Shown: positions 7,527-33,995 of the stretch, piece after piece
Position numbering within the stretch: position 1 is the first letter of the stretch
Layout: every line of letters begins with the position of its first letter
Assembly: GCA_000002445.1 (NCBI GenBank)
Contig: CP000070.1
Location: forward strand, 320,001-384,000
Direction: 5' to 3'
Source: Trypanosoma brucei
Lineage: Eukaryota
DNA: 64,000 nt
The notes under the pieces: model-generated
What the model saw: the letters and a program-made list of their open reading frames with translations, nothing else
What the model was told of the DNA's origin: nothing
The model's database searches: none
Program-made: the position numbers and the translations under genes

Positions 7527-8228
7527 ATGATGGAAAGTATGAACCTTGAACAACCACCACGACTAAACGCCGACCCCTGGCGAGATATGGAGCCAAAGGT
7601 GGATGCAATGCTAGGCGATCTACTCATGATATCTGAGCGTTTCCGAAGGATCGTAAATCCGACAGTGTCTGATGCAGATGAATTAATTGAAGCCATCAAC
7701 TCTGTGGGTGGAGAAGTTGAGACGATGCGGGTCGCTTTAGACACTACGATTGAGCGGCCGGAACTCTTTTCTGTAGATGCGGAAGAATTGAAAAGACGCA
7801 CGGAGAAAACTCGCTCGTGGGAGCGCGATGTTGCGAAAGCCATCGAGTTGCGATCAAAGATATTATCAAACCGTGAAGGGCAAATACAGGATCCACTTGA
7901 GAGTAACGTAATGACACCAAATACATGGGTTGATTTGGACACAACTCATATTCATCCATCAGCTCAGTCGTCGCATATGCCAATGAATAGTTGTGAAGCG
8001 ACTACTGACACATCTGTTGGTGTTGTTGAGTCTCAAGCTCTTATGCCAGTTGGAATACCCATACGTGAGCAAACAGTGAAGGCATCCGAATACTCAACCG
8101 CAAGTGTCGAGGTGCATACAGTGGATGATGTGGATGATCCCAATAATGAGGGATCTCTACTAAAGTACGTATTGGTTATCCTCTTAGTATCATCCATTCT
8201 TGTAGCAATATCGTTGATTTTCTTCTGA
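7527..8228 (+). CDS. Tail-anchored membrane protein with N-terminal helical/coiled domain (copy 1), 233 aa
   Basis: ATG ATG start; N-terminal helical segment (ERFRRIVNPTVSDADELIEAINSVGGEVETMRVALDTTIERPELF... RRTEKTRSWERDVAKAIELRSKIL), S/T-rich linker, single C-terminal hydrophobic segment LLKYVLVILLVSSILVAISLIFF at the extreme C-terminus; no SNARE motif adjacent to TM so not called a SNARE. Confidence 0.5.
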   Translation: MMESMNLEQPPRLNADPWRDMEPKVDAMLGDLLMISERFRRIVNPTVSDADELIEAINSVGGEVETMRVALDTTIERPELFSVDAEELKRRTEKTRSWERDVAKAIELRSKILSNREGQIQDPLESNVMTPNTWVDLDTTHIHPSAQSSHMPMNSCEATTDTSVGVVESQALMPVGIPIREQTVKASEYSTASVEVHTVDDVDDPNNEGSLLKYVLVILLVSSILVAISLIFF

Positions 8229-8755
8229 TTTTTTGATACTGAACTTTATCTCCTCTAATTGTTTCTTTTTGCGTGACTATCCTTCATCCTATGTTAAACG
8301 AAAGTAGGAGCTTATGTTTACGTATGTAGGTGCGCATTTTCTTTGTGGAAATATGTATGCATGCGTGTGGTTTTCTTTTTCATTAAAGCCTGCGAGGTGA
8401 ATGATGGAGTTTTGCTTCATATTTTATACAGAGATTGCTTAATTTGTCTTTCAGTTTCTAACTGTTTTTACCTTTTATTTCATTTATCGTAATGAAAGCC
8501 TACACTGAGCACAAGATACAAACAAGCGGTGTAGGGGAATGCTGCAAGTAACATTTGTAGTTTAAAAGTTATAACTGCAACTGAAAAGTCTCCCAATGGG
8601 CGCAGAAAGGTTTACAAACTTTACAGCTCTAAGAGCTTTCGCAGAAGCATATGCGCAAACGATTTTGTCGCCCAATATTTGGTGCTGGTACGTTACATGT
8701 GAAAAGTTCAATGATATCTGAAGTAAGGGAAATGACATCCGTATTTCTCTCGGAT

Positions 8756-8767
8756 GGGGGGGGGGGG
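8756..8767. repeat. Poly(G)12 homopolymer in spacer between the 3.3 kb repeat copies
   Basis: gatgggggggggggggaaag. Confidence 0.8.
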
Positions 8768-9640
8768 AAAGAAGCTTGGTTTCACATGTTCGGGTTAATC
8801 CTTGATATCCTTCAGCGTAATAAGACATAAATTCATCCTCAGCTCTGTCGAACAGGCGCGAGCGAAGGTTTTGGAATGAATGTTGGGCTCTCACGTAATG
8901 CAACCCCAATCCTTTTCAACGTTGCAAAATGACTTAAGGACAACTGCTTTGATAAAGATGGGGTATACACGAAAACTCACTGTTGAAGCGGGAACACAGG
9001 CATTTGATTAAAAGATAGTTAAGAATGATGAAAGGCGACAACTATAAAATGCAGGAAAATATTATGTTAGCCGCGGGAGCAGGTTTAATGAAGGGCGATC
9101 GAGTAACATAAATGGAAAACAGCGGCGAGTACATGGACCACTTAAATAAATGACAAAAGTGCAGCACCTTGCGCAATTGAAAGAGATGCTTTGTGGGAAT
9201 CGTTGCGTCTCTCACTTTGTTTTTTATTTTTATTTACTACTCTTTTTTTTTTTTTGAGAAGGCGTGTATTTCGAAGGAGGATAAATAGAAGTGATGAATA
9301 TTTCAAATATCTCCTTGTATGTATATATATATATATGCGGTTTACTTTAATAGTTCCTTCACTTGCTGTCCCCTCCCCCCTCTCTCTCTCTTTCTCTCTA
9401 TTCTTTCCGTTTATTTGTATTAACTTTTTGTGTTTCCGTAGTCTTATGATTAGACGTGTGTTCAAATAAACACGCAAGTGGTAACGTTGCATTCTACAAT
9501 ATTTCTGCTTTTGTGCACCTTTTATGGTACAGGTGTTGCTGAAGGTGCATAATAGAAGTACGGCCCACCATCATCACCACGTACGGTTTTCGTGATTCTG
9601 CGACTGGTGTCAACAAAAGGGAAGGGTACTCGAGGAGGAA

Positions 9641-10627
9641 ATGCAACGCCGCTTGCAGTGTTGTTTAATGCGTGTAGCGCGCTTACATTCGGCAGCATTG
9701 ATGCATAATACAAATGGTTGGCTTATGATATCTTGCAGAACCGTACGCATTACAGAGAGTGAGGCACAGTCGTTGGTACATTTGTCTGAGGCGCTTTTTT
9801 CTGATGAGGCAAATGCTCTGGGAGTATGTCTACCCGATACCAGCCTTAACCTTGACGGAGAAAGTGGGGAAGGGGATTTATATACTGAGACACTCACAAC
9901 AGAGAAGTATATGGATGTGCTCGTTAGTTCACCAACACAAATAGATACGAGGGGAAATGTTTCTGCTTCATCAACGGATCTGATGATGCCGCTTACGCAA
10001 GCGGTGCAAGAACTGAAGTTATGTCAGCAAAGAGAAGATCAGCGAGCCATTTCTGCAGCGCTTTCAACAGCCATGTGTGCGTTGATGGGAAGTAGTTCAT
10101 CTCCTTCCAGTGCTGCTGCAGCTGAGTTATTGTTAGCCGGTGCAGACTTGAAAGCAATCATTTCTGATGGTACTATTCGACATATGTGCATTGAGGATAA
10201 ATGCATGAGTCGATGTGATTTTTCCACTTTGTCACTACTTTCTGTACAGGCAAATCGCGTGGATTTCTCGCGCAGTCTCTTTTATGCTGCTGCCTTCCAT
10301 AATTGTGTGTTTAGGAACTGCTCTTTTGAGGGGTGTGTACTGAAGGAACTCCGATGTTTAGGAGATGTGTGTTTTGATGGATGCTCCTTTTGTTTTGCGA
10401 ACATATCGTTACGTATACCTCATGAGAAACCGAGGCGTATTTCGGTATCTTCGGCTGCCACAGAAGGCGTGGGAAGGTATTCTGCGGAACATGCTGTGAT
10501 ATTTAACCGCTGTGATTTTGACCTCTGTGATTTTGATGGTTGTGATACCCTTCCTGCATCTTGCTTTACGAACTGCACCAATACTCACCTCGCCGCCAAA
10601 TTTTCGTCATGTGTGAGAACATCATAA
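9641..10627 (+). CDS. Pentapeptide-repeat-containing protein (copy 2), 328 aa
   Basis: Identical to 5419..6405 product except RTVHITE->RTVRITE. Confidence 0.6.
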   Translation: MQRRLQCCLMRVARLHSAALMHNTNGWLMISCRTVRITESEAQSLVHLSEALFSDEANALGVCLPDTSLNLDGESGEGDLYTETLTTEKYMDVLVSSPTQIDTRGNVSASSTDLMMPLTQAVQELKLCQQREDQRAISAALSTAMCALMGSSSSPSSAAAAELLLAGADLKAIISDGTIRHMCIEDKCMSRCDFSTLSLLSVQANRVDFSRSLFYAAAFHNCVFRNCSFEGCVLKELRCLGDVCFDGCSFCFANISLRIPHEKPRRISVSSAATEGVGRYSAEHAVIFNRCDFDLCDFDGCDTLPASCFTNCTNTHLAAKFSSCVRTS

Positions 10628-11745
10628 CTGTTGAAACTGCAAGATGAATGACACGAAATAAAGAAGCTTTCGGCTACTATTGGGTTGCCTTGCGTCTGTT
10701 TATTTGTTTCATTACTTGAACGCTTATGTCTGAAGAAGTGAAGGATGGGGTGGAATGTTAAAATGCAGACTAAAACTTTCCCCACGCGCTTAAATGCATT
10801 CACCATCAAGTGGGATCTGAAGGAATACTTATCATCCCCTTCAATTATTGGTACTCATCCATCAATACATGCAACCCAATCAGGTATTTACTCTCTGCTC
10901 CAAACAACAAGAATCAGTTACGTGCGTCATTGGATTTACACGTCCTCTCCTTTTTTTTTCGTTCGTTTTCAAAATATTCATTTGAATGTGTTTTGACATT
11001 CTTCTGTATCATCATTACACTTTATCTGCAGCGATGAGGATTGGGAAAAGGGAAAATGTACGAATGGCCGTGCGACTTGCTTCTTTCAGTTCCTTTAACC
11101 TTATTGAGTTTCCTTCATTGCTGTGTCGTGCTGTACACAACACTTTGTGTGCTGGTTGGAATTATGTGGGGATGTTTTTTTTTTTTGCATTTCCCTCTCC
11201 ACACAGTAAGCCCCTCATCATCATTTTCACATTTCTCATCAATCAACATTATAAATACCTGCCCATTGGGTTGTCTGTTACGTGATATGCGTGTAAAATA
11301 TTCTGGTTCCTTCCTTTCGCATGTTTCTGTGGATACTCGAATGTACATATATTTTTTCCTAATCATTTTCCATGCTATTTCTTCCCTATCACTCTCATGG
11401 GAAAGTTTGTTTGTCCTGTACTTACGAAACCAAGCGCAAGTACATTAGTGTCATACCAATCAGAAAGGTTCGCAGTATTATTCTTATTCTTATTGTGCCC
11501 GTGATATTTATATATATTTATATATATACGTACATATATACACCTTTCTATTATTCTAGGTTGGTGCCTTTTTAAAAGTCTTCCCATTAGTTTTTTTTGT
11601 GAACATATCCCTATTACTAGCACTGCCACTGTTACTGTTTGGCTCCTTCTTTGAGTGAGCGCCTGCATCCATTTAAGTGTATATTTATTATTTTTTCGGA
11701 AACCACAACCAATTGAACGACTACTAAAGGCAAACCAAACAAAAG

Positions 11746-12447
11746 ATGATGGAAAGTATGAACCTTGAACAACCACCACGACTAAACGCCGACCCCTGGC
11801 GAGATATGGAGCCAAAGGTGGATGCAATGCTAGGCGATCTACTCATGATATCTGAGCGTTTCCGAAGGATCGTAAATCCGACAGTGTCTGATGCAGATGA
11901 ATTAATTGAAGCCATCAACTCTGTGGGTGGAGAAGTTGAGACGATGCGGGTCGCTTTAGACACTACGATTGAGCGGCCGGAACTCTTTTCTGTAGATGCG
12001 GAAGAATTGAAAAGACGCACGGAGAAAACTCGCTCGTGGGAGCGCGATGTTGCGAAAGCCATCGAGTTGCGATCAAAGATATTATCAAACCGTGAAGGGC
12101 AAATACAGGATCCACTTGAGAGTAACGTAATGACACCAAATACATGGGTTGATTTGGACACAACTCATATCCATCCATCAGCTCAGTCGTCGCATATGCC
12201 AATGAATAGTTGTGAAGCGACTACTGACACATCTGTTGGTGTTGTTGAGTCTCAAGCTCTTATGCCAGTTGGAATACCCATACGTGAGCAAACAGTGAAG
12301 GCATCCGAATACTCAACCGCAAGTGTCGAGGTGCATACAGTGGATGATGTGGATGATAGTAGGAGCTCTAATTCTGCTAAGAAGACGGTCTTGATTATAT
12401 TTTTTGCATCGTCTCTTCTTGTGGCTATACTGGTGATTTTCTTTTGA
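11746..12447 (+). CDS. Tail-anchored membrane protein (copy 2) with diverged C-terminal anchor
   Basis: Identical to copy 1 for ~205 aa, then ...VDDVDDSRSSNSAKKTVLIIFFASSLLVAILVIFF instead of ...VDDVDDPNNEGSLLKYVLVILLVSSILVAISLIFF. Confidence 0.5.
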   Translation: MMESMNLEQPPRLNADPWRDMEPKVDAMLGDLLMISERFRRIVNPTVSDADELIEAINSVGGEVETMRVALDTTIERPELFSVDAEELKRRTEKTRSWERDVAKAIELRSKILSNREGQIQDPLESNVMTPNTWVDLDTTHIHPSAQSSHMPMNSCEATTDTSVGVVESQALMPVGIPIREQTVKASEYSTASVEVHTVDDVDDSRSSNSAKKTVLIIFFASSLLVAILVIFF

Positions 12448-12505
12448 TTTTTTGATACTGAACCTTATCCGCTCTAATTGTTTCTTTCTGTTCGCTTGTT
12501 GTTAC

Positions 12506-12528
12506 TATATATATATATATATATATAT
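12506..12528. repeat. (TA)n microsatellite just beyond repeat copy 2
   Basis: tatatatatatatatatatatat read directly. Confidence 0.9.
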
Positions 12529-13217
12529 GTTCTTTTAATTGATAATGAGTTAGCTCTTATGGGTTGAAAGTAGAGTGAAGTTGTGGTATTGTTAACTCCT
12601 GTCGAGTCCATTTTGTTGTTGCTTCTTGTTGAGCACCACCTATTTGTTTTTCTTTGGTCCACTCATCGTTTGTTCATTATGACGAGCAGCAGGTACTGTA
12701 ATTAGATCGAATGGGTGACTTTTTTTTTGTTGTTGTCGCTTTTTTTTTTCTGTTTATATTTTTTTTCGGCCTCCTTTTTGTAGTTTACCTCATTAGCGTT
12801 TGTCAGATTGTCATTCGAACGTGCGAACGAACAGTCACCGTCATTAACGTGCTTTTTTATTAATTATTTAAGCGTTTTTTTCATTTTTATATGTTTGTAT
12901 GATGTTGTTGTACGCGGGCACACGTGGTTGCATTGCCATCTGCCGTATGGGTGTTGTTGATTCATTACTTGGATTCACAGGTGGACTTATTATACGGATT
13001 CCGTAAACTTTGTTTTATTCTCTGAGCGAGCTGTTATAAATATTTATTATACTTTCACTTCGCCTTCCTCCTGTAGTTATCTTTTTTTAAAAAAAGATTA
13101 AGAAGTAGGAATAGGGGCAAATAATCAGATACTCCCTTCTCGCCTCTCCTGACGGCAGCGCGGTGATAGCACGGGTGTAGAAAATAGTATTTTTTTTTTC
13201 TGTTACGAGGGGAACTG

Positions 13218-13946
13218 ATGTTTGGACGTGGTTGCATGCTCACTTTTATTAGCACGGCTCTGTTGCTTCTTGGGGTCGGAGATGCGGCGGATGTTAAAGA
13301 CGGGCAAGGGAGTGTACAAACAACCAGTGATGACGTGTCGTATTATGGCCGTTTGAAGCTGCACCCAACCCTTGTCAATAATCCTGACTTCCACAACCCG
13401 CTGTGGCATGTTCAGGGAGGGGAGGTGATTCTAAGCAATGCTCAGCACTCATTTCGTGTGCCGACGCAAGTGGATGGTTCTTTTGTTGTACATGGTGTCC
13501 CTTACGGAAGTTACTACCTCCATGCGGAATATAGTGATCACATCTACCCAACCATTCGCGTTGATGTAACTCAGAAGACTTCCCATGGGTTAGTACGACC
13601 ACTTATACGAACTTATGCAAACGAGGCGATACTCCAGCAATTACAAGGAACCGGTTTAGACGAATCGGCACCAGCAACCATTCCTTTTGTTGGAATTCAC
13701 AACTATTTTGTGCCTCGTGAAGAGTACACTGTGTGGGGTTTACTGACAAATCCAATGATCATGATGATGCTAGTCTCTATGGCATTGATTGGGATGATGA
13801 ATTTGGTGCCAGAGGAGGAACGAAGAGAGTCCATGCGGGAGTTCCAGAACCTACGTAAGCAGTTTTCTGGTGGAGGTGCTGACGAGATTAAGCAACCGGC
13901 AAGGCGTGCGGTCACTGCGGCGGGACACGAGAGGAAGCACAAGTGA
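13218..13946 (+). CDS. EMC7: ER membrane protein complex subunit 7 (EMC7) homologue, 242 aa
   Basis: Signal peptide (MFGRGCMLTFISTALLLLGVGDA), beta-sandwich region DGSFVVHGVPYGSYYLHAEYSDHIYPTIRVDVT matching human EMC7 [33 protein letters not shown], and WGLLTNPMIMMMLVSMALIGMM matching the human EMC7 ...NPMVMMM... C-terminal TM (compared from memory of the human sequence). Confidence 0.8.
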   Translation: MFGRGCMLTFISTALLLLGVGDAADVKDGQGSVQTTSDDVSYYGRLKLHPTLVNNPDFHNPLWHVQGGEVILSNAQHSFRVPTQVDGSFVVHGVPYGSYYLHAEYSDHIYPTIRVDVTQKTSHGLVRPLIRTYANEAILQQLQGTGLDESAPATIPFVGIHNYFVPREEYTVWGLLTNPMIMMMLVSMALIGMMNLVPEEERRESMREFQNLRKQFSGGGADEIKQPARRAVTAAGHERKHK

Positions 13947-14735: not shown

Positions 14736-15869
14736 ATGACCCCGTTTTCATGTCGCAAAACCAGCCTGTTGAAAGCCATTTGCATCTTTGCTTATTTTGC
14801 ATCTGCAGCGCATGCTAACGAACCGGATGCGGCGCTGGAGGGTGTTGTAGACCTCACCAGCAATAACTTTGACAGTAGTGTGGGAAAGGACGTGGCAGCG
14901 CTGGTGGAGTTTTACGCGCCATGGTGTGGACACTGCAAAAACCTCGTACCGGAGTTTGCCAAACTCGGCCGCGCCGCCGCTGGGGCCAAGGATAAAGTTC
15001 TCATTGCTAAAGTGGATGCCACAGCCCAAAAGGACCTCGCAACTCGCTTTGAGGTGAATGGGTACCCAACCATTCTCTTCTTTCCTGCTGGCTCGCAGAA
15101 GCCGGAGAAATACAGCGAGGGTCGCGAGGCGAAGGCGTTTGTTTCGTACCTTAACAACCAAATAAAGGGCTTGAACCTTTTTCTTCCCCGTGAACACAAG
15201 TACGTGATGGCGCTGGACCAATCCAACTTTGACAAAGTGGCACTGGACGAAGGGAAAGATGCGTTTGTTTTATTTTACGCCCCCTGGTGTGGACACTGCA
15301 AGCGCCTCCATCCCTCGTTTGAGAGTCTCGCGAAGGTGTACCAAAACGAAAAGGACCTCATCATTGCTAATGTCGACGCTGATGACAAGAGCAACTCTGA
15401 GGTGACGAAGCGCTATAAGGTGGAGGGCTACCCCACTCTCGTTTTCTTTCCAAAAGGAAATAAGGGCAACCCGGTGAACTATGAGGAGGGACGAACCTTG
15501 GACGATATGATCAAGTTCGTCAATGAGAGAACGGGGAAAAAACGCACCAGCAGCGGTGATTTTGACAAAACTGTTGGTGTCGATGAAACCGTCACGAACC
15601 TCATGAAGGAGATGGCACAGTCAAGCAAGAACAAGGAGGAGAGGGAACGCCTCCTCGCGCAGATTCAGCAAGCCGTCTCCCCCAAAGCTCTAGGCGAGGG
15701 TGCCATGCACTACATCCGTATTGCTACTAATGTCCTTGAGAATGGTCATGAGTATATTAGCAAGGAACACGAGCGTGTCGGCCGTCTTCTGAAGGGAAGT
15801 CTGACAGGTCCGAAGAGGGATTCGTTGACGATCCGATTCAACATTCTTTCGGCAATCAAAGGTGAGTAA
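14736..15869 (+). CDS. Protein disulfide isomerase (two catalytic thioredoxin domains + C-terminal helical D domain, P5/ERp38-like), 377 aa
   Basis: N-terminal signal peptide; two APWCGHCK active sites (VEFYAPWCGHCKNL and VLFYAPWCGHCKRL) each followed by GYPT(I/L) cis-Pro loop; resembles the bloodstream-stage PDI genes of T. brucei (recalled, not searched). Confidence 0.85.
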   Translation: MTPFSCRKTSLLKAICIFAYFASAAHANEPDAALEGVVDLTSNNFDSSVGKDVAALVEFYAPWCGHCKNLVPEFAKLGRAAAGAKDKVLIAKVDATAQKDLATRFEVNGYPTILFFPAGSQKPEKYSEGREAKAFVSYLNNQIKGLNLFLPREHKYVMALDQSNFDKVALDEGKDAFVLFYAPWCGHCKRLHPSFESLAKVYQNEKDLIIANVDADDKSNSEVTKRYKVEGYPTLVFFPKGNKGNPVNYEEGRTLDDMIKFVNERTGKKRTSSGDFDKTVGVDETVTNLMKEMAQSSKNKEERERLLAQIQQAVSPKALGEGAMHYIRIATNVLENGHEYISKEHERVGRLLKGSLTGPKRDSLTIRFNILSAIKGE

Positions 15870-16722: not shown

Positions 16723-19700
16723 ATGGAGTCAAAACGCTTTTCGGTGGGGTCCGAAACTCAGCTTCCGCTAAGGTTCCGGCGCAGTTACACCAGTGACGCA
16801 GCCGGCATTGCCCAATTGAGAAAAATCGCGAGCGTCGCGCAATGTATCCCGCCCACCGCAATGTACCCGTGGAAAACGGAGTCAGAATTCACGACGCTCA
16901 TTGAACAATCCGTGATATCTATTACAGCGATATCTACAGTAATTGACAAGCCTGTCGGGTTCATTTGTCTTGACGACACACCGCACACAACGTTGATACC
17001 TGGAGACAGCTGGGAGGTTCTACTAGATGATAGTGACGGAGATTGTGATAAGCCCCTATCAATCTTTCCGTGCAACACCCTATGGGTGAAGGCAGTTCTC
17101 GTTCCTACATCTACTGCCCTTATGTCAGACTCTACAAATATGACGAAAGAGGATTTAGACTTACAAAGAAAGCTGCTACTTTTCGGCTATTCTTCGGAGG
17201 CGCTTCTTCAGCGTTTTCTCCATATTGCGTTAGACAACCTTCCTTCAATCGAGCACCTGTTGGTTCCCTGCCCAATGGGGCAAACTTACCGCGTGTTTGA
17301 AAACATCGGCTTCCGCCCCAGGCCTCTGCAACCCTCATCCTTCAACGGAACCGTACTTCATATCAAATCCGTCAGTATTGTGCCGCAGTTGCTTTTGCGA
17401 CTTGGTATCGTAGAGGACTATGACGATTTTGTGGTTAGGATTCTCGGTGGTGACGGCCTCATCACATCTTTGCCGGAGGAGTTTTATCTTGACGAGCTGT
17501 TAAAAGACCAGAATAGCAACAACAAGGTGATTGTCGCCGAGGACGCCGTGACGCACCGTGTCGCCGGAATTATGTGCCTTGAGGCCTCCATCGAGGATCA
17601 GCAAATGATATCACGACAGTACTACACCGAGTTGTACGGAAAGCTTCGCCCTATGCGAGGGCAACGCAACGCCTCGAAAGGTGCGGTCACTTCCAATATG
17701 GTGAGGATTAAGTTTTTCTACATTGACCCGGCGTACGCGCTGCGGGCTAAGAGTTTCTTGCCGGTCATATACAAGGAGTTTCCGTTCGTTGAGTACGTTA
17801 TTATTACTCTGCCGTACGACACCGAAAAGCCGCCGTTCCTTGGGGACTTTGATCATATCCCACTTCGCAAATATTACCCCAGGAACTCTGAAGGTTATCT
17901 GATACCGCCGCCCGATGGCCTCTGGATCAACTGCAGGTACGCGGCGGATCCAGTGGTCGCTACACCTGTGCGCAGTGAAAAAGACATAACATCCATCAAT
18001 GTCTTCTTGGATGAGCCACACATGGAATTTTCTCAACATCAAATCACTTTGTTGAGGGAGGATATACAACGCCTGCGGAGCGGTAGGGAAACCCCTGAGG
18101 ATGTCGAAGAGTCGAACATCAACAGCTTTGTCTTTTCCTTTGTCACGTACACAGAGAATGTAGGGAGTGAGAAACAGTTACCTATTGTCGTTGGCGTTGC
18201 CTCCGCGCGGAAAATTTCAGTTAATGAAATGTATAGTTTACGTGCAAACTATGACCTCGACAAGCTAGTAAACTACTACTCGAAGGCCCCTCGGGACTAC
18301 AGCGAAACAGACGTAACGCTCAGTTCTGAGGAGGGACGGCGAAAGTTCTTCAGGAACGAGGTGAGAGGTTTGCTCGTTCGCAGTTTCTACGTGAGGCCTG
18401 TGTATCGTAGTCGTATTTCCTTCTTGATGAGGGAATTGTTGCGACACACAGACTGTGAGTTGGCATTATTGCTAGAAGATAATGCCAGTTCACCCTTCAC
18501 CACCTTGTTGCATCAGTTACTGCGCATCCAACCTCGACGAGTGGTGGAGAAACCTCGCCCTCCGGCAAGCGAACCGGTATTCACACCAAGAAGCCCAGAA
18601 AGGATACCAAGTAAGGATGTCTCACCCCTTGGTTGCCTTTTTGCCGCCACGCGTAGAACTCTTGGGGACCGCAAAAAACTGGTACATACACGCATTATTG
18701 TCGTGGGCGCCGGCTCCACTGGTCTGACGTTTCTTTATCGTCTTCTTACCGTGCCGTACATTTGTTTCACTAACCTGGTGCTTATCTCTACTGATGGCAT
18801 GCCGGAGCATCCTAACCAACAGCAGAACCTCTGGAGCACCGATCGGATGGAACTACTTGAACGAGAACATATGGGACTCACAGTGGGGAACCCTATTCGC
18901 GTTATCCACGGCTCTATGGTCGATATTGAAACTGCCCAGCGTTATGTTGTCGTTGACGACAGCACTTATGAGCCGTATGACTATGTTATTCTCACAACGG
19001 GTAGGCAATTTGGCGTGCCTCTTTCCATAAGTAGCCTTCAACAACCAGTGCAGCAGCGGCAGCAGTTGTCACGGACGAGCACACCTCCTGGTGTTCTGCC
19101 GATCTCTGGTTCGGCTTCTGTAGAAAGGTTGCAGCGGACCCTGTATGAATTGGACCGTAACCCAGAAAATGTCAGCAACATTGTGGTGTACGGCTCCGGT
19201 CTAGACGCCTTTGCTATTGCCACATCCATCATCAACCTCGGTTTCTCACCGCAACGTATGGTGTTGGTGAGTCCGGATGTAACAAATCCATTCGTTGACA
19301 AGGACGCCTTTGAATGTGTTGTGAGAATGTGGAGTGCATTGGGGGCGAATACGATGCATGGGTACAAGATCAGTCGCACAGAATACGATGATGATGGTAC
19401 CACATTAACAACCGTCGTTCTTTCACCCGTGCCCGCATTAGCCGCTCCGGCTGGTCCTGGGACCGATTCCAATGCCCGAAGTTCTGTTGAGATCAACTGC
19501 AGCCTTATCGTCTGCTGTGAGGATAAGGATATTGACAGTAATGTACTTTCCACACTGAACAGGCGCTCGATTGTGTTCGACGGTCGCGTCACGGTTGAGT
19601 CCAACTACCTCACGACGAACCCGTGCGTATACGCAACAGGGCCTGTTGCAATGTTCACACGGCGGTACGGCACGACGACCAGTTTCGATGAATTCAACGC

Positions 19701-20766
19701 GAGGGACGTGGGAACAAACTTGGCGGAGGTTATACTTGGTACGCTTGGGTTCGAGGAGTTTGCTACGCCAAACCTTCAGTCGTGCACAGATAAGGAGAAC
19801 GAATTGCTTGCAGCGCATAATGAACTGTACAGTAAAGTCCTCGATGAGAACGGTAGTCGCAACGCAAATTATGGTGTCGACCTTAATTCTCTGTCGGCGG
19901 AAAAGGATGCCCATGAGATTGCAAAGCAAAACCAACTTAAGCAACAGCAGAAACTCCCAGTGTATACCACGCCCGTTGCGAGCCGAATTCGTCTTCCTGG
20001 GAAGTACGTTTTCTTCAGTACTATGCGCATATTTTTTGACCCCGCGCAGTGCACGCGATTGTACTATTCCTGTATAGAAGACAACAAACCTTATGTAGAT
20101 GACATAACAGCCTCTTATCAAGTGGCAACACCTGCCGACAGGGGCTCAATATATAAAGACGTGGAGCAGGACCTTCTTGTAATTTACTTGAACAAACACA
20201 CGCGACTCATTGATGCTGTGGTGTACTTTGGTAATGGCAGTCCTGAGACGCACAACTATATGTGCCTGATTGGTTTGCCTCACTCCTTGTTGAACCTCAT
20301 CTTTCGCTATAATGAAGCCCGCACGGACTTGCTGGAAAGCGATGATTGCGGCTCCAACAGCAGTATGAGCGGGAGTAAGAGCACCGCAAGCAACAAAATA
20401 GATATTGTTGCTCAAGAAAGCACTCTAAATCTCATGGAATATCTTCGGTCACCAAGGTTGCAGGTTGTCTTTTACGATCGGTTCGTGGAGTTCTACGAAA
20501 ACCTCCGTAAGAAGATGCAAGAGCATGAGGATGTGATGAAAATGAAGCAGAGTGCACTCCAGAGAATGGAAGTGACACCACGTATTAGCGCTAAAAACCG
20601 TGCGATATATCTAGAAAAACTGACGGAGATGCAAAAAGACTTTGCACGGAGGGTTCAGTACGAGCTCATCAAATTCCTCCACGAAAGCAAAGAGTACCTG
20701 CCACAGATCATGTACCTGCCAGACATTACGGAGCATGTGGAAAAAAATGAGGGTCGACAGGAGTGA
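16723..20766 (+). CDS. Large flagellar-type protein with pyridine-nucleotide-disulfide-oxidoreductase-like tandem dinucleotide-binding motifs; CFAP61-like (1347 aa)
   Basis: ATG start; mid-protein TRIIVVGAGSTGLTFLYRLL (GxGxxG) and later IVVYGSGLDAFAIATSIINLGF (second Rossmann motif) with TTGRQFG between them - the FAD/NAD(P)-binding arrangement present in CFAP61/FAP61 radial-spoke-associated proteins; size comparable (~1250 aa in other eukaryotes). Family assignment from memory only. Confidence 0.45.
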   Translation: MESKRFSVGSETQLPLRFRRSYTSDAAGIAQLRKIASVAQCIPPTAMYPWKTESEFTTLIEQSVISITAISTVIDKPVGFICLDDTPHTTLIPGDSWEVLLDDSDGDCDKPLSIFPCNTLWVKAVLVPTSTALMSDSTNMTKEDLDLQRKLLLFGYSSEALLQRFLHIALDNLPSIEHLLVPCPMGQTYRVFENIGFRPRPLQPSSFNGTVLHIKSVSIVPQLLLRLGIVEDYDDFVVRILGGDGLITSLPEEFYLDELLKDQNSNNKVIVAEDAVTHRVAGIMCLEASIEDQQMISRQYYTELYGKLRPMRGQRNASKGAVTSNMVRIKFFYIDPAYALRAKSFLPVIYKEFPFVEYVIITLPYDTEKPPFLGDFDHIPLRKYYPRNSEGYLIPPPDGLWINCRYAADPVVATPVRSEKDITSINVFLDEPHMEFSQHQITLLREDIQRLRSGRETPEDVEESNINSFVFSFVTYTENVGSEKQLPIVVGVASARKISVNEMYSLRANYDLDKLVNYYSKAPRDYSETDVTLSSEEGRRKFFRNEVRGLLVRSFYVRPVYRSRISFLMRELLRHTDCELALLLEDNASSPFTTLLHQLLRIQPRRVVEKPRPPASEPVFTPRSPERIPSKDVSPLGCLFAATRRTLGDRKKLVHTRIIVVGAGSTGLTFLYRLLTVPYICFTNLVLISTDGMPEHPNQQQNLWSTDRMELLEREHMGLTVGNPIRVIHGSMVDIETAQRYVVVDDSTYEPYDYVILTTGRQFGVPLSISSLQQPVQQRQQLSRTSTPPGVLPISGSASVERLQRTLYELDRNPENVSNIVVYGSGLDAFAIATSIINLGFSPQRMVLVSPDVTNPFVDKDAFECVVRMWSALGANTMHGYKISRTEYDDDGTTLTTVVLSPVPALAAPAGPGTDSNARSSVEINCSLIVCCEDKDIDSNVLSTLNRRSIVFDGRVTVESNYLTTNPCVYATGPVAMFTRRYGTTTSFDEFNARDVGTNLAEVILGTLGFEEFATPNLQSCTDKENELLAAHNELYSKVLDENGSRNANYGVDLNSLSAEKDAHEIAKQNQLKQQQKLPVYTTPVASRIRLPGKYVFFSTMRIFFDPAQCTRLYYSCIEDNKPYVDDITASYQVATPADRGSIYKDVEQDLLVIYLNKHTRLIDAVVYFGNGSPETHNYMCLIGLPHSLLNLIFRYNEARTDLLESDDCGSNSSMSGSKSTASNKIDIVAQESTLNLMEYLRSPRLQVVFYDRFVEFYENLRKKMQEHEDVMKMKQSALQRMEVTPRISAKNRAIYLEKLTEMQKDFARRVQYELIKFLHESKEYLPQIMYLPDITEHVEKNEGRQE

Positions 20767-23984: not shown

Positions 23985-24481
23985 CCACATATGGGATGCG
24001 AGACCCGCTATTTCCATTATCTATTTTCTTATTATCACTATCACTATTGTTATTTTTAATTACTGTTCGGACAAGTGAAACGATTTTCTCCACTTCCTGT
24101 GTTCGCCCATCGGTATGCATCGGATTTTGGGACACTAACATTCATCGCATTGCGCGCGCTTGACGCCCCCGGCACCGGGGCAGTTGTATCAGTTCACTTT
24201 TTCCTAAATTTTGGTCACTACGTTTCCCTTTTTAAAAAAAAATTATTCTTTCCCCGGCAATCCCGTTTCGCCACTATTACGCCTCGCATTGGGATGCACA
24301 GTGGCAAAGGTTGTCCCACGGGCGGTCAACTAGTGTGGGATACGTTCCCATAATTACACATTTGTGGTAGGTAAAAGCACGTTCGGTATTTTCAGTGTTG
24401 CACAGGAGGCCCTAGTGCAGTTCTGCAACGGCGTTGCTGTGACTTCTCTTGACTCGTTTGTTGCATGTGCCCGCGGTGGAG

Positions 24482-25534
24482 ATGTTTCGCTATCGTTGCC
24501 GCAACGCTAAAAACCTGTTGCTGATGCGCAACATACGCCGTTGGTACACAAGTGCGGGCAACGATGAGAGTCTACCATCCGCGCAAGGACCACCGTTGGC
24601 AGGCGTTTCATCACCAACGCTGTGGAGGAACGGTGGTGTGCTGGGCGAGGGCATGTTGGGAAACCCACGTGTGGCAGCAACAACACCGCAGGAGGTGGAG
24701 GAAACGTTTCGCTGCTCCGTCCTTGCCCGTACGGTTAGCAACTTGAAATTGCGGCGTTACCTCCAGAAATTGGAACCAAAGGATCACACATTAGTCCTTG
24801 CGGCTCTTCGTGGAGCTCAAGCTGGTGGGCTTCGATTGGATACGAAAACTAACGAAGTGGCCCTCTCTAAGCTGATGGATGGAGGCCAACTGCAGGCAAG
24901 TATGGAGATTTATCGGAAGATGATTCAGAATCGTATGAATCCAACAGCAAACACATATGCCACGCTTATGCACATGTGCATCGAGCGGGATATGCCGGAG
25001 GCGTGCCAGAAACTTTTTGAGGAGATGGTCAAGCGTGGCCAGTCACCCAACACACGGAACTACGAAATGTATATTGGGTCGCTCGCAATGGAAAATCCGC
25101 CCAAATGGAAAAATGCTATTGAGGTGTTTGACCGCATGTCACGGGAGCGTCACGGCAAACACCTGACGGCAGCAACATACGAGTCCCTTATGCGCGTCTA
25201 CCTGAATATGACGCCATTTGACTGGCGGGTGGTTTACAACTGCTACTATGAGATGCGCTCTCGCCAACCCCAAATTCAGCTACGGTGGGAGACCTATCAC
25301 TTGGTGGCGGAAGCACTGCGCCGTGGTCAAGCAGGGTACACGCGGCGCCTCATCACGTACTTGGATGCGTGGTTTTGTATAACGTACTTTCGCTCCTGGG
25401 AGTTTTTCATGGGCTTCATGTTTTACATCTGCCTGATGTTTCTTATTAAGGGTCTTATTAGTTGGGTGGTTGTCTGGTACTACGGGCGCGCCGTTAACGC
25501 AAGCAGGGGTGCGTCGGAGTCTGTCATCTTATAG
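24482..25534 (+). CDS. Pentatricopeptide-repeat (PPR)-like protein, probable mitochondrial; track start 24449 is TTG, first ATG 24482 (MFRYRCRNAKNLLLMRNIRRWY)
   Basis: R-rich amphipathic N-terminus; degenerate ~35-aa helical repeats with PPR character (MEIYRKMIQNRMNPTANTYATLMHMCIERDMPEACQKLFEEMVKRGQSPNTRNYEMYIGSL..., AIEVFDRMSRERHGKHLTAATYESLMRVYL). Confidence 0.55.
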   Translation: MFRYRCRNAKNLLLMRNIRRWYTSAGNDESLPSAQGPPLAGVSSPTLWRNGGVLGEGMLGNPRVAATTPQEVEETFRCSVLARTVSNLKLRRYLQKLEPKDHTLVLAALRGAQAGGLRLDTKTNEVALSKLMDGGQLQASMEIYRKMIQNRMNPTANTYATLMHMCIERDMPEACQKLFEEMVKRGQSPNTRNYEMYIGSLAMENPPKWKNAIEVFDRMSRERHGKHLTAATYESLMRVYLNMTPFDWRVVYNCYYEMRSRQPQIQLRWETYHLVAEALRRGQAGYTRRLITYLDAWFCITYFRSWEFFMGFMFYICLMFLIKGLISWVVVWYYGRAVNASRGASESVIL

Positions 25535-30497: not shown

Positions 30498-32315
30498 ATG
30501 AGAAGTAGTGCTAATTTTTTTTTAGCGAATAGTAGTAGCGGCGGACTTTCGAAATATCGCCCCCGATTTCGGCCGAGAAGACTTGTGCTGCCGGTAAATC
30601 CTTCTGATGTGCATAGCATTAGTCGAGCGAATAATCCCATGTACGCGAAATATCAAGAGGGTATTCGATTGAGAAGGAGGGCGGAGCGCCGCGGTGTAAT
30701 TGCACTTTCTTTCGTTCCGTCTGAACGCAGCGTGGGTGATGCTTTTCGGATTATGGTTGAGGTGTGTGAAAAGGAGGGGTTCTTCGAGTCAAAGTCGTCC
30801 ACACCAAATTATCTCCGTAAAGTACGTGAATTAATCAAGCGCGCTGAGACGGAATTAGGGACCGGGGAAAGAGTCAAAAATACGTCCGCGAACCCATCTT
30901 TTTACGACATTGGCTTGTCAGAAGCGAGGGATTTATCAAGAAACGCAGATAAATCACGTCATGCTGAGGGCAATATCGAAACGAGGGAGATAGACTCACT
31001 GTGGAGTCTACTAAATGCTACTCCACTTGATTCCCCCGTTCATGGGATTTTGGCCTTGAGGGGAAAGGCCCTCCTTGAAAGTATAATTGCTAACACCGTA
31101 CAACAACAATATCCACGGCTGCGGTCAAAGCACTTGCAGGAAATCATACATGAGTGTTGTAGTCTTTTGGCATGTGGAAGAGCCGCGTTCCGTCTGGGAT
31201 TCGCTGACGTTTGTGGAATTAATGGGGAGATAAACATGTGGCGTGAACTCAATGTCCTCACTGAGAGGTTCAATACCGCACGACATAAGGCTGCTGCTCA
31301 CCTCCAACGTGTGGAGAAAGGAGTGACACAACAAAGACGATGGTATTGGAGGGGCGTTCTCAGGTCTTCATCTAAGCGATTGAAACAGTTCCCTGTACGT
31401 CAAGGTGATTTACTCCCCCGAATGGAGTGGATAAGGGAGTCTGTGTACGCGTTCGTTGCCTTTGTGGATCTGGCAGAAAAATCAGGTGACAATGTCCGTG
31501 TAGTGCCACTGATTGAAAATCTGTTCTGTGGTCAAATATCCTCGTTTGTAAGCACCAACCAGACACTTAAGAAGGCGCATAGGATGGTTGATATGCTGTC
31601 AAAAGCAAGAATTGAATGTGATGCCACAACGGAAAAAGAGAAAATACAACAATTAGAGTCTCTTTCTACTGACATTGAAAATGAGCTTGCCGCCCTCGAA
31701 CAATTCACTGATGACGAGTTAGGAGTTATGAGCCGTGTCGTTCATCCGCTTAATGCTCGGAGCGACAACCGGAAAGAGCAGTTTTCGTCCAGTGGTGGTG
31801 CCCATGCGGTGCAAAGTCTTAGGGATGACATCTTCGACGATTACCGGGTAACTCGTCACAACAAAGAGGCGCCCCCTATGGTGATCAACTGTATGCGCCC
31901 ACAAAATGCTCTGAAAGAGGCTCAAATCATTCTCCGCTACGATCCGAATGTGTCAGAAACATTGTCGTCATCTCCTATAGATGTCGACCAGGTGATCCGA
32001 AGGGTCACTGAGGTACACGAAACCAATTCTTACGCTACGCTTTACAATTTCCAGCAGTTTAGGCAGGTTGAATATACGGTTTGCCGGCTTTACGCAGGAA
32101 AGCGTTGTATTGGCCAAGGAAAAGGCGAAACCCTGATGGAAGCAGTAAACGAAGCGGCCCAGCACACACTTCTTAATTATTATCTTAAAGACGTGAGCAA
32201 TGCGAACTCCCGTGAAAAAGAAGAGGACGCTGTCACCGAGGCCTTCAGTGCCACTCCACCTGAGTTGACGGAGGTCCGCGTCAAAGAGGCTACGGAGGAA
32301 GAAGTTATTTTTTGA
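30498..32315 (+). CDS. Degenerate RNase III-like domain + dsRNA-binding domain protein, probable organellar (605 aa)
   Basis: RNase III signature region aligned by eye: ...LDSPVHGILALRGKALLESIIANTVQQQYPRL vs canonical ...[27 protein letters not shown] (catalytic E and D replaced by H/G and R/G); C-terminal dsRBD: YATLYNFQQFRQVEYTVCRLYAGKRCIGQGKGETLMEAVNEAAQHTLLNYYLK (G.G.sK.eA...AA..aL motif); R-rich N-terminus (MRSSANFFLANSSSGGLSKYRPRFRPRRL). Confidence 0.65.
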   Translation: MRSSANFFLANSSSGGLSKYRPRFRPRRLVLPVNPSDVHSISRANNPMYAKYQEGIRLRRRAERRGVIALSFVPSERSVGDAFRIMVEVCEKEGFFESKSSTPNYLRKVRELIKRAETELGTGERVKNTSANPSFYDIGLSEARDLSRNADKSRHAEGNIETREIDSLWSLLNATPLDSPVHGILALRGKALLESIIANTVQQQYPRLRSKHLQEIIHECCSLLACGRAAFRLGFADVCGINGEINMWRELNVLTERFNTARHKAAAHLQRVEKGVTQQRRWYWRGVLRSSSKRLKQFPVRQGDLLPRMEWIRESVYAFVAFVDLAEKSGDNVRVVPLIENLFCGQISSFVSTNQTLKKAHRMVDMLSKARIECDATTEKEKIQQLESLSTDIENELAALEQFTDDELGVMSRVVHPLNARSDNRKEQFSSSGGAHAVQSLRDDIFDDYRVTRHNKEAPPMVINCMRPQNALKEAQIILRYDPNVSETLSSSPIDVDQVIRRVTEVHETNSYATLYNFQQFRQVEYTVCRLYAGKRCIGQGKGETLMEAVNEAAQHTLLNYYLKDVSNANSREKEEDAVTEAFSATPPELTEVRVKEATEEEVIF

Positions 32316-32591: not shown

Positions 32592-33047
32592 ATGAGTACG
32601 ATGGATGTCCCGGGCACCGCCATTGAGCAGTATTTCAACCAGCTCATCCAGATGAGGCTTCTCACACAGGTGATTGTATCAGATACTCGGGGTGATACGA
32701 CTGTTGCGTGTCTCATGGGTTTGGAACATGGAGGAGACGCTGTTGTTTCGTCATCTGAAGATACGTACGGCGTAGCAGAGTCGATAATGGAAAGCAACGT
32801 CGCCCTTAGTGGTGCTCGATGCTTTCAGAATTTAGACCAACTGAACCTGGGTGTGCCACTCTATGTAAGCTTTCAGTATCACGATGATGTCGTTGTGCAG
32901 ACGCTCGATGGGTGCTGTATGCTGACTCTCATCGGTAGCCGGTCCCAAGGACATTTTGTAGGTGGCCTACTAACACTTCTCGATCAAATACGTTCGTGCG
33001 AGGCATATCAAGAGCTACTAACACAAACTCAACTATGCTTTAGGTGA
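32592..33047 (+). CDS. Hypothetical protein, 151 aa (possible roadblock/longin-like small alpha-beta fold)
   Basis: ATG start, + strand, follows 280-nt pyrimidine-rich spacer; weak resemblance only (IEQYFNQLIQMRLLTQVIVSDTRGDTTVACLMGLEHGG). Confidence 0.35.
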   Translation: MSTMDVPGTAIEQYFNQLIQMRLLTQVIVSDTRGDTTVACLMGLEHGGDAVVSSSEDTYGVAESIMESNVALSGARCFQNLDQLNLGVPLYVSFQYHDDVVVQTLDGCCMLTLIGSRSQGHFVGGLLTLLDQIRSCEAYQELLTQTQLCFR

Positions 33048-33440
33048 AGTATCTACTTCCAGTCGTTTACGTGTCAGAGGCCATATTCTCTTTTCTACAT
33101 TTCCTTTTATTTCCCTGATTGTCTTGAAGTCGCCATGCGGGGTCTATTTGTGACGTTTTGTTGGTCATCGCTATTTCTCATTAATTTATTTGTGTGCTCG
33201 AGCTCTCAGCATCCTGATTCTCTACTCTGGACCCCTTTGCCCTTTCCCTTATTGAACCCCTCTGTGTACAGGTATTTTTTGAAGGCCATTTTCAACGATT
33301 TTCGTCTATAGTTATCCATTCTTTCTCGCATTTGTGCTCTTTCCAAACCTTTCTTTGTTAGGCAGCCGGTACCATTCGCAGCAGCAGCCAGAAGTAGACT
33401 AATTTGCAAGTAGTTTGTACCATACGTTGTCAAAATCGTG

Positions 33441-33995
33441 ATGACTGTGAACATCGTTGCGCGCATTTCCAACTTACCAACCAGTATTACGGACGCTCAC
33501 TTGCGGGAGCTAATTGAACCGTTTGCACGAGTGAGGTGTATTATTATGCCCAAGTCTGCTCTTTGGCAGACGTGTCCCACGGGGCGCGCGGAAGTTGTGG
33601 GTGCCACGACTGATGACACTATATTGGTATACGTCCATCTCCACGGATCTATCATTGATGGTAATCGAGTAAACGTATCATTTGGGAAAGTAGCCAAATG
33701 TGTTCAACCGACTTCTTCATCACGCTTCGCGGGAGAACGGCGGGAGAGGACGTCACGCCGCACGCGTAGTGAAAGCAGGGGGGCGCGGAAAAGACCGAAG
33801 AGGGGCGATCGTAGTGGGGAATATTGCAGTAGGGGGCATGGGAAGCGGCAGACAGTGAGGCGGTCACCTACTCCACGGAAAACGAGGCGCTACTCTACAT
33901 CTCCTTCGAGCAGAAGCTCCTCTTCCGGACGGGACTCGTGGTCAAGCGACAGAAGCCGAAGCCGAAGCCGCTCCCCGTACCCAAGTTGGAGCTAA
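33441..33995 (+). CDS. RRM-like domain protein with RS/SR-rich C-terminus (184 aa); track start 33438 is GTG
   Basis: N-terminal RRM-like segment (VNIVARISNLPTSITDAHLRELIEPFARVRCIIMPK...ILVYVHLHGSIIDGNRVNVSFGK) followed by RRERTSRRTRSESRGARKRPKRGDRSGEY...SSRSSSSGRDSWSSDRSRSRSRSPYP. Confidence 0.5.
   Translation: MTVNIVARISNLPTSITDAHLRELIEPFARVRCIIMPKSALWQTCPTGRAEVVGATTDDTILVYVHLHGSIIDGNRVNVSFGKVAKCVQPTSSSRFAGERRERTSRRTRSESRGARKRPKRGDRSGEYCSRGHGKRQTVRRSPTPRKTRRYSTSPSSRSSSSGRDSWSSDRSRSRSRSPYPSWS

What the first reader, a model, noticed from the sequence alone, without database searches (positions are those of the whole stretch)
30498..32315. Catalytically degenerate RNase III + dsRBD protein with organelle-like N-terminus
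The protein keeps the RNase III helical signature region (LLESIIANTVQQQYPRL aligns with [16 protein letters not shown]) and a clear C-terminal dsRBD (GQGKGETLMEAVNEAAQHTL). The catalytic ERLEFLGD acidic residues, however, are replaced (HGILALRG). Non-catalytic RNase III folds act as dimerisation partners of active RNase III enzymes in kinetoplastid RNA-editing and processing complexes, and as RNA-binding scaffolds in mitoribosomes. The R-rich N-terminus suggests mitochondrial import.
Basis: partly seen in the sequence, partly recalled or inferred. Interest (0 to 1): 0.55.

Follow-up and report, generated by a model that had tools for sequence, protein, structure and literature searches.

The report
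Mitochondrial dead RNase III, mL44-like
This Trypanosoma brucei gene, labelled in databases as a nuclear spliced-leader transcription factor (PPB1, Tb927.7.1370), encodes a protein imported into mitochondria that has lost its RNA-cutting residues and most resembles mitochondrial ribosomal protein mL44, so the database label is probably wrong and its real job is untested.

Summary

An AlphaFold model and profile comparisons show an RNase III-fold domain (aa ~161-345), split by a conserved, basic 56-aa helical insertion, and a C-terminal dsRBD (aa ~466-566).

No sequence I aligned (27 + 17) keeps the four catalytic acidic residues at the aligned positions: E41->A, D45->K, D114/E117->F, or S/V in the other register.

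The closest relative by four methods is mitoribosomal mL44:
- Foldseek top hits.
- The only PDB profile hits.
- hhalign 96.8% / E 2.5e-10, against 44.8% for bacterial RNase III.

Published ImportOmics data place the protein in the ATOM40-dependent mitochondrial importome. It is absent from every solved kinetoplastid mitoribosome, assembly-intermediate and editosome structure, and from the 2008 mitoribosome proteome list.

The family spans kinetoplastids (including Perkinsela) and diplonemids.

Verdict: a diverged, non-catalytic mL44 homologue in the mitochondrion, most likely an RNA/protein-binding scaffold. It is probably mis-annotated as a nuclear transcription factor, and its function is untested. 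It is a new member of a known kind, of moderate interest.

The parts
30498..32315 (+). Complete ORF, 605 aa plus stop. [quoted passage not shown]
   Evidence: 100% identity over the full length. One search gives the gene ID.
30498..30677 (+). N-terminal 60 aa, very basic (pI 11.8). It has a short MRxx start followed by the family-wide conserved Arg-rich motif Y20-RPRFRPRRLVLPVNP-35 (nt 30555-30602). The model predicts it to be disordered.
   Evidence: P32 is invariant among the 27 sequences of A1 and >=90% conserved in A2; the motif is recognisable in most kinetoplastid-type members and weaker in diplonemids. (pLDDT <50 for aa 1-29). (pI and conservation).
30693..30776 (+). Conserved segment G66-E93 (VPxERSVGDAFRxM), a confidently modelled helix that is specific to this family.
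   Evidence: G66 invariant; V73, P74, E76, R77, D81 and R84 at >=90%. (pLDDT 84-93 for aa 71-100).
30978..31226 (+). RNase III-like domain, first half (aa 161-243). It holds the degenerate signature H182-GILALRG-K190 (nt 31041-31067), where E38/E41/D45 of E. coli RNase III are G/A/K. It also holds the invariant basic patch P206-RLRSKH-212.
   Evidence: (94%, E 1e-7; alignment to mL44 HNGRLSLLGES; column contents).
31227..31394 (+). Family-specific helical hairpin inserted in the RNase III fold (aa 244-299). It is strongly basic (pI 11.7) and the most conserved segment of the protein (MWRELN ... QRRWYWR; W248, E250, W282 and W284 invariant among the 27 sequences of A1).
   Evidence: (helices 242-273 and 281-297; the RNase III alignment only closes when this stretch is removed).
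31395..31532 (+). RNase III-like domain, second half (aa 300-345). The helix P307-RMEWIRESVYAFVAFVDLAE-327 corresponds to the D114/E117 helix of E. coli RNase III. Those positions are F319/F322, or S315/V320 in the alternative register.
31533..31892 (+). Helical linker (aa 346-465). It is variable in length and sequence, but includes the conserved HPLN...SSGGAH stretch (aa 416-436).
   Evidence: mean conservation 0.48.
31893..32195 (+). C-terminal dsRBD (aa 466-566) with alpha-beta-beta-beta-alpha topology, of mL44 type. E474 is invariant in both alignments. The GKGE motif (G541-K542-G543) is conserved, but the canonical KKxAK lysines are absent.
   Evidence: yeast mL44, whole-sequence E 9e-4, matching through this region. 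(secondary structure). (93.5% against the mL44 dsRBD, 8% against bacterial). (precomputed Pfam PF22892 = DSRM_MRPL44).
32196..32312 (+). Acidic, low-confidence C-terminal tail (aa 567-605). It ends in the kinetoplastid-conserved motif EEE-(I/V)-x-(F/L).
   Evidence: last alignment block; pLDDT <50; pI 4.2.

Best explanation
The gene encodes a nuclear-encoded protein that is imported into the mitochondrion. It is a highly diverged homologue of mitoribosomal protein mL44: an RNase III-fold domain that has lost all four catalytic carboxylates, followed by an mL44-type dsRBD. It therefore cannot cut RNA by the RNase III mechanism.

The family has added several conserved features: a basic N-terminal Arg-rich peptide, a conserved basic/aromatic helical hairpin inserted in the RNase III fold, an invariant PRLRSKH patch, and an acidic tail.

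Shown: the fold, the loss of the catalytic residues, the closest similarity to mL44, mitochondrial import (from published proteomics), and conservation across kinetoplastids and diplonemids.

Inferred: it works as a non-enzymatic RNA- and/or protein-binding scaffold in mitochondrial gene expression. The most likely setting is large-subunit rRNA or mitoribosome biogenesis, or a loosely attached peripheral ribosome factor, as expected of an mL44 descendant. The database name, a nuclear SL RNA promoter transcription factor, is most likely a historical mis-assignment.
For: - Identity.
- Sequence profiles: a family profile searched against all PDB sequences hits only mL44 (yeast E 9e-4, human 0.055) and no bacterial RNase III, Dicer, Drosha or KREPB.
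- Profile-profile: hhalign of the core against an mL44 profile gives 96.8%, E 2.5e-10, 191 columns spanning both domains. Against a bacterial RNase III profile it gives 44.8%, E 2.2e-4.
- Pfam: precomputed DSRM_MRPL44 on three family members.
- Catalytic loss. mL44 shares the E38->G and E41->small-residue changes.
- Import: 0.157-fold after ATOM40 RNAi, 4/4 replicates, p 0.00088, GO component mitochondrion.
- Basic, highly conserved family-specific segments.
Against: - It is not in the Zikova 2008 mitoribosome list, the Panigrahi mitochondrial proteome, or the RNA-editing and MRB1 lists, as tabulated by Peikert 2017.
- TargetP and MitoFates predict no presequence.
- The dsRBD lacks the canonical KKxAK lysines, so RNA binding is itself unproven.
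- From my memory, not retrievable here: the original Leptomonas seymouri work (Matkin, Das and Bellofatto, Nucleic Acids Res 2001) reported sequence-specific binding to the SL RNA gene promoter.
- No paper in the searchable library mentions Tb927.7.1370, so there are no functional data.
Confidence: 0.6

Rival explanations
1. It is a pseudo-nuclease partner or duplex-RNA binder in kinetoplastid/diplonemid mitochondrial RNA processing. The dead RNase III domain would pair with an active mitochondrial RNase III (for example the gRNA-processing enzyme mRPN1), or with itself. That would position or protect double-stranded RNA such as sense/antisense gRNA precursors or gRNA-mRNA duplexes, independently of the ribosome.
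For: - The protein is mitochondrial yet absent from ribosome structures and from the 2008 ribosome proteome.
- The most conserved surface is the former signature/dimer-interface region plus the basic insertion.
- The family was identified in kinetoplastids and diplonemids, both lineages with exotic mitochondrial RNA processing.
Against: - It is not in the RNA-editing or MRB1 protein lists, nor in the solved RECC structures.
- It is closer to mL44 than to the KREPB proteins or any active RNase III by every measure used.
- The dsRBD lacks the lysines used for canonical dsRNA binding.
- No partner has been identified. Absence from euglenids is not established, because most distant hits are unnamed metagenomic sequences.
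Confidence: 0.22
2. The database annotation is right: it is a nuclear DNA-binding factor for the PSE promoter element of spliced leader RNA genes, possibly dually localised.
For: The name is carried by orthologues in more than 20 kinetoplastid genomes. From memory only: it derives from a 2001 Leptomonas seymouri study reporting promoter binding. The protein has very basic segments that could bind DNA in vitro.
Against: - Its abundance in purified mitochondria drops about 6-fold when the outer-membrane import pore ATOM40 is depleted.
- It has no DNA-binding domain in Pfam. The fold is that of an RNA-binding mitoribosomal protein.
- One orthologue is already labelled 'putative mitochondrial' (Leptomonas pyrrhocoris).
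- From memory: later purifications of the trypanosome SL RNA pre-initiation complex (tSNAPc/TBP/TFIIA) did not contain it.
Confidence: 0.05
3. It is still an active nuclease that uses a non-canonical catalytic site.
For: His182, Arg188, Glu250, Glu310 and Glu474 are invariant or nearly so and could in principle build a different active site.
Against: All four metal-binding carboxylates are replaced, two of them by Phe, across all aligned family members. mL44, its nearest relative, is likewise non-catalytic. There is no similarity to any other nuclease fold.
Confidence: 0.03

Closest known systems
Mitoribosomal large-subunit protein mL44 (human MRPL44, yeast MRPL3)
   Same: - The same two-domain architecture: a degenerate RNase III-like domain followed by a dsRBD.
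- The same loss of catalytic residues, including Gly at the E38 position.
- The same extra residue and GxGxGE(T/S)L pattern in dsRBD helix 2. The region-3 lysines are absent, as in human mL44.
- An insertion at the same point of the RNase III fold in choanoflagellate mL44.
- Mitochondrial location.
   Different: - Twice the size (605 aa against ~290-330 aa).
- It has a 160-aa N-terminal region with a conserved Arg-rich motif, a conserved basic 56-aa hairpin insertion, a 120-aa helical linker and an acidic tail.
- Sequence identity is only ~10-17%.
- It has not been seen in any kinetoplastid mitoribosome structure or in the 2008 ribosome proteome, so ribosomal residency, the defining property of mL44, is unproven.
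Editosome degenerate RNase III proteins KREPB4-B8 (MP46, MP44, KREPB8) of T. brucei RECC
   Same: Mitochondrial, kinetoplastid, RNase III fold without a complete catalytic site. They serve as non-catalytic partners and scaffolds.
   Different: - No sequence or profile match to the RECC chains in the PDB.
- No zinc-finger or PUF module was detected.
- Not in the published editing-protein lists.
- As far as I recall, the KREPB proteins have no dsRBD; this was not checked here.
Class 1 bacterial RNase III (E. coli Rnc, Aquifex aeolicus RNase III)
   Same: The same domain order (nuclease domain then dsRBD) and the same fold. The conserved helical signature region aligns.
   Different: All four catalytic carboxylates are lost. 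There is a large insertion and there are extensions. The dsRBD region-3 lysines are lost. The profile match is weaker than to mL44 (44.8% against 96.8%).
mL57 (yeast and Neurospora mitoribosome), the RNase III-like partner of mL44
   Different: As far as I recall, mL57 has no dsRBD (not checked here), and its structural similarity is much lower. Whether kinetoplastids have an mL57-like partner was not testable here.

Membership tests
mL44 (mitoribosomal protein L44) | Degenerate RNase III-like domain followed by a dsRBD | tested here: met
   [not shown]
mL44 (mitoribosomal protein L44) | Closer in sequence and structure to mL44 than to other RNase III families | tested here: met
   [not shown]
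mL44 (mitoribosomal protein L44) | Mitochondrial localisation | tested here: met
   Published ImportOmics data read here: ATOM40-dependent, 0.157-fold, p 0.00088. No experiment of my own.
mL44 (mitoribosomal protein L44) | Stoichiometric constituent of the mitochondrial large ribosomal subunit | tested here: inconclusive
   There is no match to any chain of a solved kinetoplastid mitoribosome or assembly intermediate, and it is not in the Zikova 2008 list. A loosely bound, early-assembly or unmodelled protein cannot be excluded. On present evidence this feature is not met, so I do not file the protein as mL44 proper, only as an mL44 homologue.
Catalytic RNase III (class 1-4) | Signature motif ERLEFLGD and the acidic quartet (E41, D45, D114, E117 in E. 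coli numbering) | tested here: not met
   The aligned residues are A186, K190, and F319/F322 or S315/V320. They are conserved as non-acidic across all aligned family members.
Canonical (type A) dsRBD | alpha-beta-beta-beta-alpha fold plus RNA-contact regions 1-3, including KKxAK at the start of helix 2 | tested here: inconclusive
   The fold is present and the region-1 Glu (E474) is invariant. The region-3 lysines are absent in every aligned member (TLMEAV and variants). RNA binding is not testable here.
Editosome KREPB4-B10 proteins | Subunit of RECC with a U1-like zinc finger plus a degenerate RNase III (and PUF) module | tested here: not met
   [not shown]
SL RNA gene promoter transcription factor (the database name, PPB1) | Nuclear, sequence-specific DNA-binding protein required for SL RNA transcription | not testable with these tools
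   No DNA-binding domain was detected, and the protein is imported into mitochondria, which argues against this role. The original L. seymouri paper could not be retrieved.

The most novel reading that the evidence does not exclude
An mL44-derived pseudo-RNase III left the ribosome in the common ancestor of kinetoplastids and diplonemids. It then became a dedicated duplex-RNA-handling factor for the unusual mitochondrial RNA processing of these lineages, such as gRNA/antisense duplexes, gRNA-mRNA duplexes or diplonemid module joining. It would do this using its new basic hairpin and Arg-rich N-terminal peptide, possibly as the silent half of a heterodimer with an active RNase III.
Probability: 0.2. 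Interest if true: 0.7.

Novelty: new member of a known kind. Interest (0 to 1): 0.45.

Why it matters
1. It would correct an annotation, 'SL RNA PSE-promoter transcription factor', that has been copied into dozens of kinetoplastid genomes and that points experimenters to the wrong compartment and process.

2. Valach et al. 2020 (PMC7947838) state that the presence of mL44 in the last eukaryotic common ancestor is uncertain, because outside model organisms only an unconfirmed jakobid homologue is known. A clear mL44 homologue conserved across kinetoplastids and diplonemids adds a second discobid lineage and makes that question testable.

3. It is a strongly conserved mitochondrial pseudo-enzyme with no assigned complex, in an organelle whose ribosome, editosome and RNA-processing machines have been mapped in great detail. 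That makes it an obvious candidate for a missing early-assembly or RNA-handling step, in parasites where mitochondrial gene expression is a drug-relevant process.

Tried and rejected
- Single-sequence searches were nearly blind. Pfam gave only E 0.11, PDB phmmer gave nothing relevant, and scanning all 27 family members against Pfam gave no significant family.
- hhalign against a single E. coli sequence gave only 3% probability. With the insertion left in, the second half of the domain mis-aligned; removing aa 244-299 fixed this.
- A second word-indexed homologue search with the diverse alignment A2 returned the same 40 proteins.
- The AFDB50 fold library was unavailable.
None found a paper naming PPB1 in trypanosomatids or Tb927.7.1370. 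A guessed DOI for the 2001 L. seymouri paper failed.
- Supplements of the Diplonema mitoribosome paper, the Andalucia paper and Tobiasson 2021 are not held. The hyperLOPIT and diplonemid mitoproteome supplements, which are partly truncated, had no entry.
- Rejected: active nuclease (no acidic quartet), KREPB membership (no zinc finger, not in RECC), and stable mature-ribosome subunit (absent from the structures).
- I did not attempt a linked-dimer AlphaFold run. The tool returns no coordinates or PAE, so an interface could not have been judged.

Full report
**What is at the coordinates.** The window is Trypanosoma brucei TREU927 chromosome 7. The ORF at 30498..32315 (+) starts with ATG and encodes 605 aa. 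It is 100% identical over its full length to XP_845761.1 / UniProt Q57WR3.

**Is the RNase III plus dsRBD reading real?** Single-sequence tools barely see it. Pfam Ribonuclease_3 scores E 0.11 over aa 185-238, and PDB phmmer finds nothing relevant. With homologues the signal becomes clear.
- I aligned 27 kinetoplastid orthologues as A1. The AlphaFold2 model has mean pLDDT 72.5 and pTM 0.70. It has a confident all-helical core at aa ~160-430 and an alpha-beta-beta-beta-alpha unit at aa 471-563.
- Foldseek against the PDB is likewise headed by mL44 chains from human, mouse and yeast mitoribosomes, with Drosha interleaved.
- With the family-specific insertion (aa 244-299) removed, hhalign aligns the domain to E. 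coli RNase III residues 21-147 at 94% probability, E 1e-7.

**Catalytic site.** In that alignment, and in the alignment to mL44, E. coli E38/E41/D45 correspond to G183/A186/K190. The D114/E117 helix corresponds to P307-RMEWIRESVYAFVAFVDLAE. Depending on where a two-residue gap is placed, D114/E117 fall on F319/F322 or on S315/V320. Neither register gives an acidic residue. G183 is invariant, and A186, F319 and F322 are nearly invariant among the 27 sequences. The wider alignment A2, which includes Perkinsela-like and diplonemid members, also shows no acidic quartet in any member. Only Leishmaniinae have Asp at the D45 position (RGD), which is insufficient alone. The protein is therefore a pseudo-RNase III.

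**The dsRBD.** The fold is present and E474 (region 1) is invariant in both alignments. The lysines of the canonical KKxAK motif at the start of helix 2 are missing: the sequence is GKGETLMEAV, with no conserved Lys in any aligned member. This resembles human mL44 (GPGETVLVAEEEAA). So 'clear dsRBD' is right for the fold, but canonical dsRNA binding cannot be assumed.

**Which RNase III family?** Several independent lines point to mitoribosomal protein mL44.
- A profile of A1 searched against all PDB chain sequences hits only mL44: yeast E 9e-4, human 0.055, Neurospora 0.12. It hits no bacterial RNase III, Dicer, Drosha or editosome protein.
- An exhaustive HMMER scan of 1.84 billion representative proteins found 45 hits. 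Where an origin could be established they are euglenozoan, apart from P0078, a choanoflagellate protein. P0078 passes Pfam RM44_endonuclase at 48 bits. Its Salpingoeca orthologue is named mL44 by UniRef.
- Profile-profile comparison of the conserved core (aa 165-243, 300-350 and 466-566) gives 96.8% / E 2.5e-10 over 191 columns spanning both domains against an eight-sequence mL44 profile. Against a fourteen-sequence bacterial RNase III profile it gives 44.8% / E 2.2e-4. Each domain taken alone also prefers mL44: 89.9% against 45.4%, and 93.5% against 8%.
- The precomputed Pfam label on three family members, PF22892, is DSRM_MRPL44.
- mL44 shares the Gly at the E38 position and a small residue at E41. 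The choanoflagellate proteins carry an insertion at the same point of the fold.

**Where is the protein in the cell?** I read the supplement of Peikert et al. 2017 (Nat Commun 8:15272, PMC5436138).
- In gradient-purified mitochondria, Tb927.7.1370 drops to 0.157-fold (mean log2 -2.67, 4/4 replicates, p 0.00088) after knock-down of the outer-membrane import channel ATOM40. This is well inside the paper's importome threshold. Its GO component is mitochondrion.
- It also falls to ~0.40-0.43-fold in two further SILAC datasets of that paper's supplement (files 4 and 5; I did not read their headers, so I cannot say which knock-downs they are).
- The same tables show what it is not. It is not in the Panigrahi mitochondrial proteome, the Zikova 2008 mitoribosome list, or the RNA-editing and MRB1 lists. 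Neither TargetP nor MitoFates predicts a presequence.
- So mitochondrial import is supported by experiment rather than by the look of the N-terminus.

**The Arg-rich N-terminal stretch.** It is therefore a functional motif rather than a mere targeting peptide.

**Distribution.** Orthologues occur throughout trypanosomatids. More distant members occur in Perkinsela (KNH09369.1) and in the diplonemids Hemistasia and Lacrimia, plus many unnamed metagenomic sequences. Two unnamed members sit on long, gene-dense contigs. Some unnamed members are 1074-1288 aa, with the domain in the middle. No euglenid member was identified, but most distant hits are unnamed, so absence from euglenids is not established.

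**Family-specific anatomy.**
- The N-terminal 60 aa have pI 11.8.
- The aa 244-299 hairpin inserted in the RNase III fold has pI 11.7. It is the best-conserved segment (mean conservation 0.75; MWRELN ... QRRWYWR, with W248, E250, W282 and W284 invariant among the 27 sequences).
- The PRLRSKH patch follows the signature helix (R207 invariant in both alignments; R209 invariant among the 27).
- The tail is acidic and ends in EEE-(I/V)-x-(F/L).
- From memory of the Aquifex RNase III-RNA structures, the PRLRSKH patch lies where that enzyme has an RNA-contacting loop of its nuclease domain. This is a lead, not a test.

**Most likely mechanism.**
- Shown: the fold, the loss of catalysis, the nearest-relative status of mL44, import, and conservation.
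- Inferred: the protein acts without cutting, as an RNA- and/or protein-binding scaffold in mitochondrial gene expression.
- As an mL44 descendant it most plausibly acts on large-subunit rRNA or in early or peripheral mitoribosome biogenesis. Conserved disordered Arg-rich extensions are typical of ribosomal proteins.
- I put ~0.6 on the combined statement. I would put about 0.9 on the structural, evolutionary and localisation part, and about 0.4 on the ribosome link.
- The main rival (~0.2) is a ribosome-independent role as a silent dimer partner or duplex-RNA binder in gRNA/mRNA processing. This fits its absence from ribosome preparations and its kinetoplastid-diplonemid distribution, but has no direct support.
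- The annotated nuclear transcription-factor role (~0.05) conflicts with import and with the fold. As I recall it rests on a 2001 Leptomonas seymouri promoter-binding study (Matkin, Das and Bellofatto, Nucleic Acids Res), which I could not retrieve.
- A cryptic nuclease activity is very unlikely (~0.03).

**Comparison with the known, and novelty.** The protein works like, and descends from the same stock as, mL44. It fails, or at least has not passed, the defining test of being a large-subunit constituent. I therefore call it an mL44 homologue, not mL44. It is not a member of the catalytic RNase III classes or of the KREPB editosome family.

The gene itself is long known and named. In the literature I could search, nothing describes it as a mitochondrial, mL44-like pseudo-RNase III, nor the extent of the family. 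Valach et al. 2020 explicitly list mL44 as of uncertain antiquity. I rate it a new member of a known kind, with interest 0.45. It is a useful re-annotation and a good experimental lead, but not a new principle.

Noticed in passing
window 4963-13400 (repeat unit ~4.22 kb; copies e.g. 4963-5262 / 9185-9484, 6730-7029 / 10951-11250): A near-perfect (99-100%) tandem duplication carries two gene pairs. One pair is a 328-aa protein with a weak pentapeptide-repeat hit (5419-6405 and 9641-10627). The other is a 233-aa protein with a hydrophobic C-terminal tail (7527-8228 and 11746-12447), whose copies differ only near the C-terminus.
   Followed up: partly
window 24449-25534 (+): A 361-aa pentatricopeptide-repeat protein (PPR_2, E 1.9e-11) lies two genes upstream of the target. 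By gene order it is probably Tb927.7.1350, which Peikert 2017 lists as mitochondrial with a predicted presequence. The mapping of this ORF to that ID was not verified.
   Followed up: partly
window 16723-20766 (+): A 1347-aa CFAP61-like flagellar protein with CFAP61_N, a Pyr_redox_2 oxidoreductase-like middle region and the CFAP61 dimerisation domain.
   Followed up: no
window 14736-15869 (+): A 377-aa protein disulfide isomerase-like protein with two thioredoxin domains plus an ERp29 C-terminal domain.
   Followed up: no
window 33438-33995 (+) and 32592-33047 (+): These are the two ORFs immediately downstream of the target. One is a 185-aa protein with an Arg/Ser-rich C-terminal half (RSRSRS...). 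The other is a 151-aa protein. Neither has a Pfam hit at E <= 0.001.
   Followed up: no
aa 190 of the target (nt 31065-31067) and orthologues P0014, P0015, P0017, P0019, P0022, P0029: Leishmaniinae orthologues have Asp (RGD) at the position of catalytic D45, where trypanosomes have Lys. The other three catalytic positions remain non-acidic, so this looks like drift rather than retained activity.
   Followed up: partly
proteins P0060 (1288 aa) and P0062 (1074 aa), from ENA metagenome contigs: These are giant family members. The pseudo-RNase III core sits in the middle of a protein twice as long, with low-complexity Ser/Ala/Gly-rich expansions. The organism is unknown.
   Followed up: no
Diplonema papillatum DIPPA_27413 (supplement of PMC12699882): [quoted passage not shown] Its sequence is unrelated in detail to this family. 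It could be an mL57-like or mRPN1-like partner worth testing against this family.
   Followed up: no
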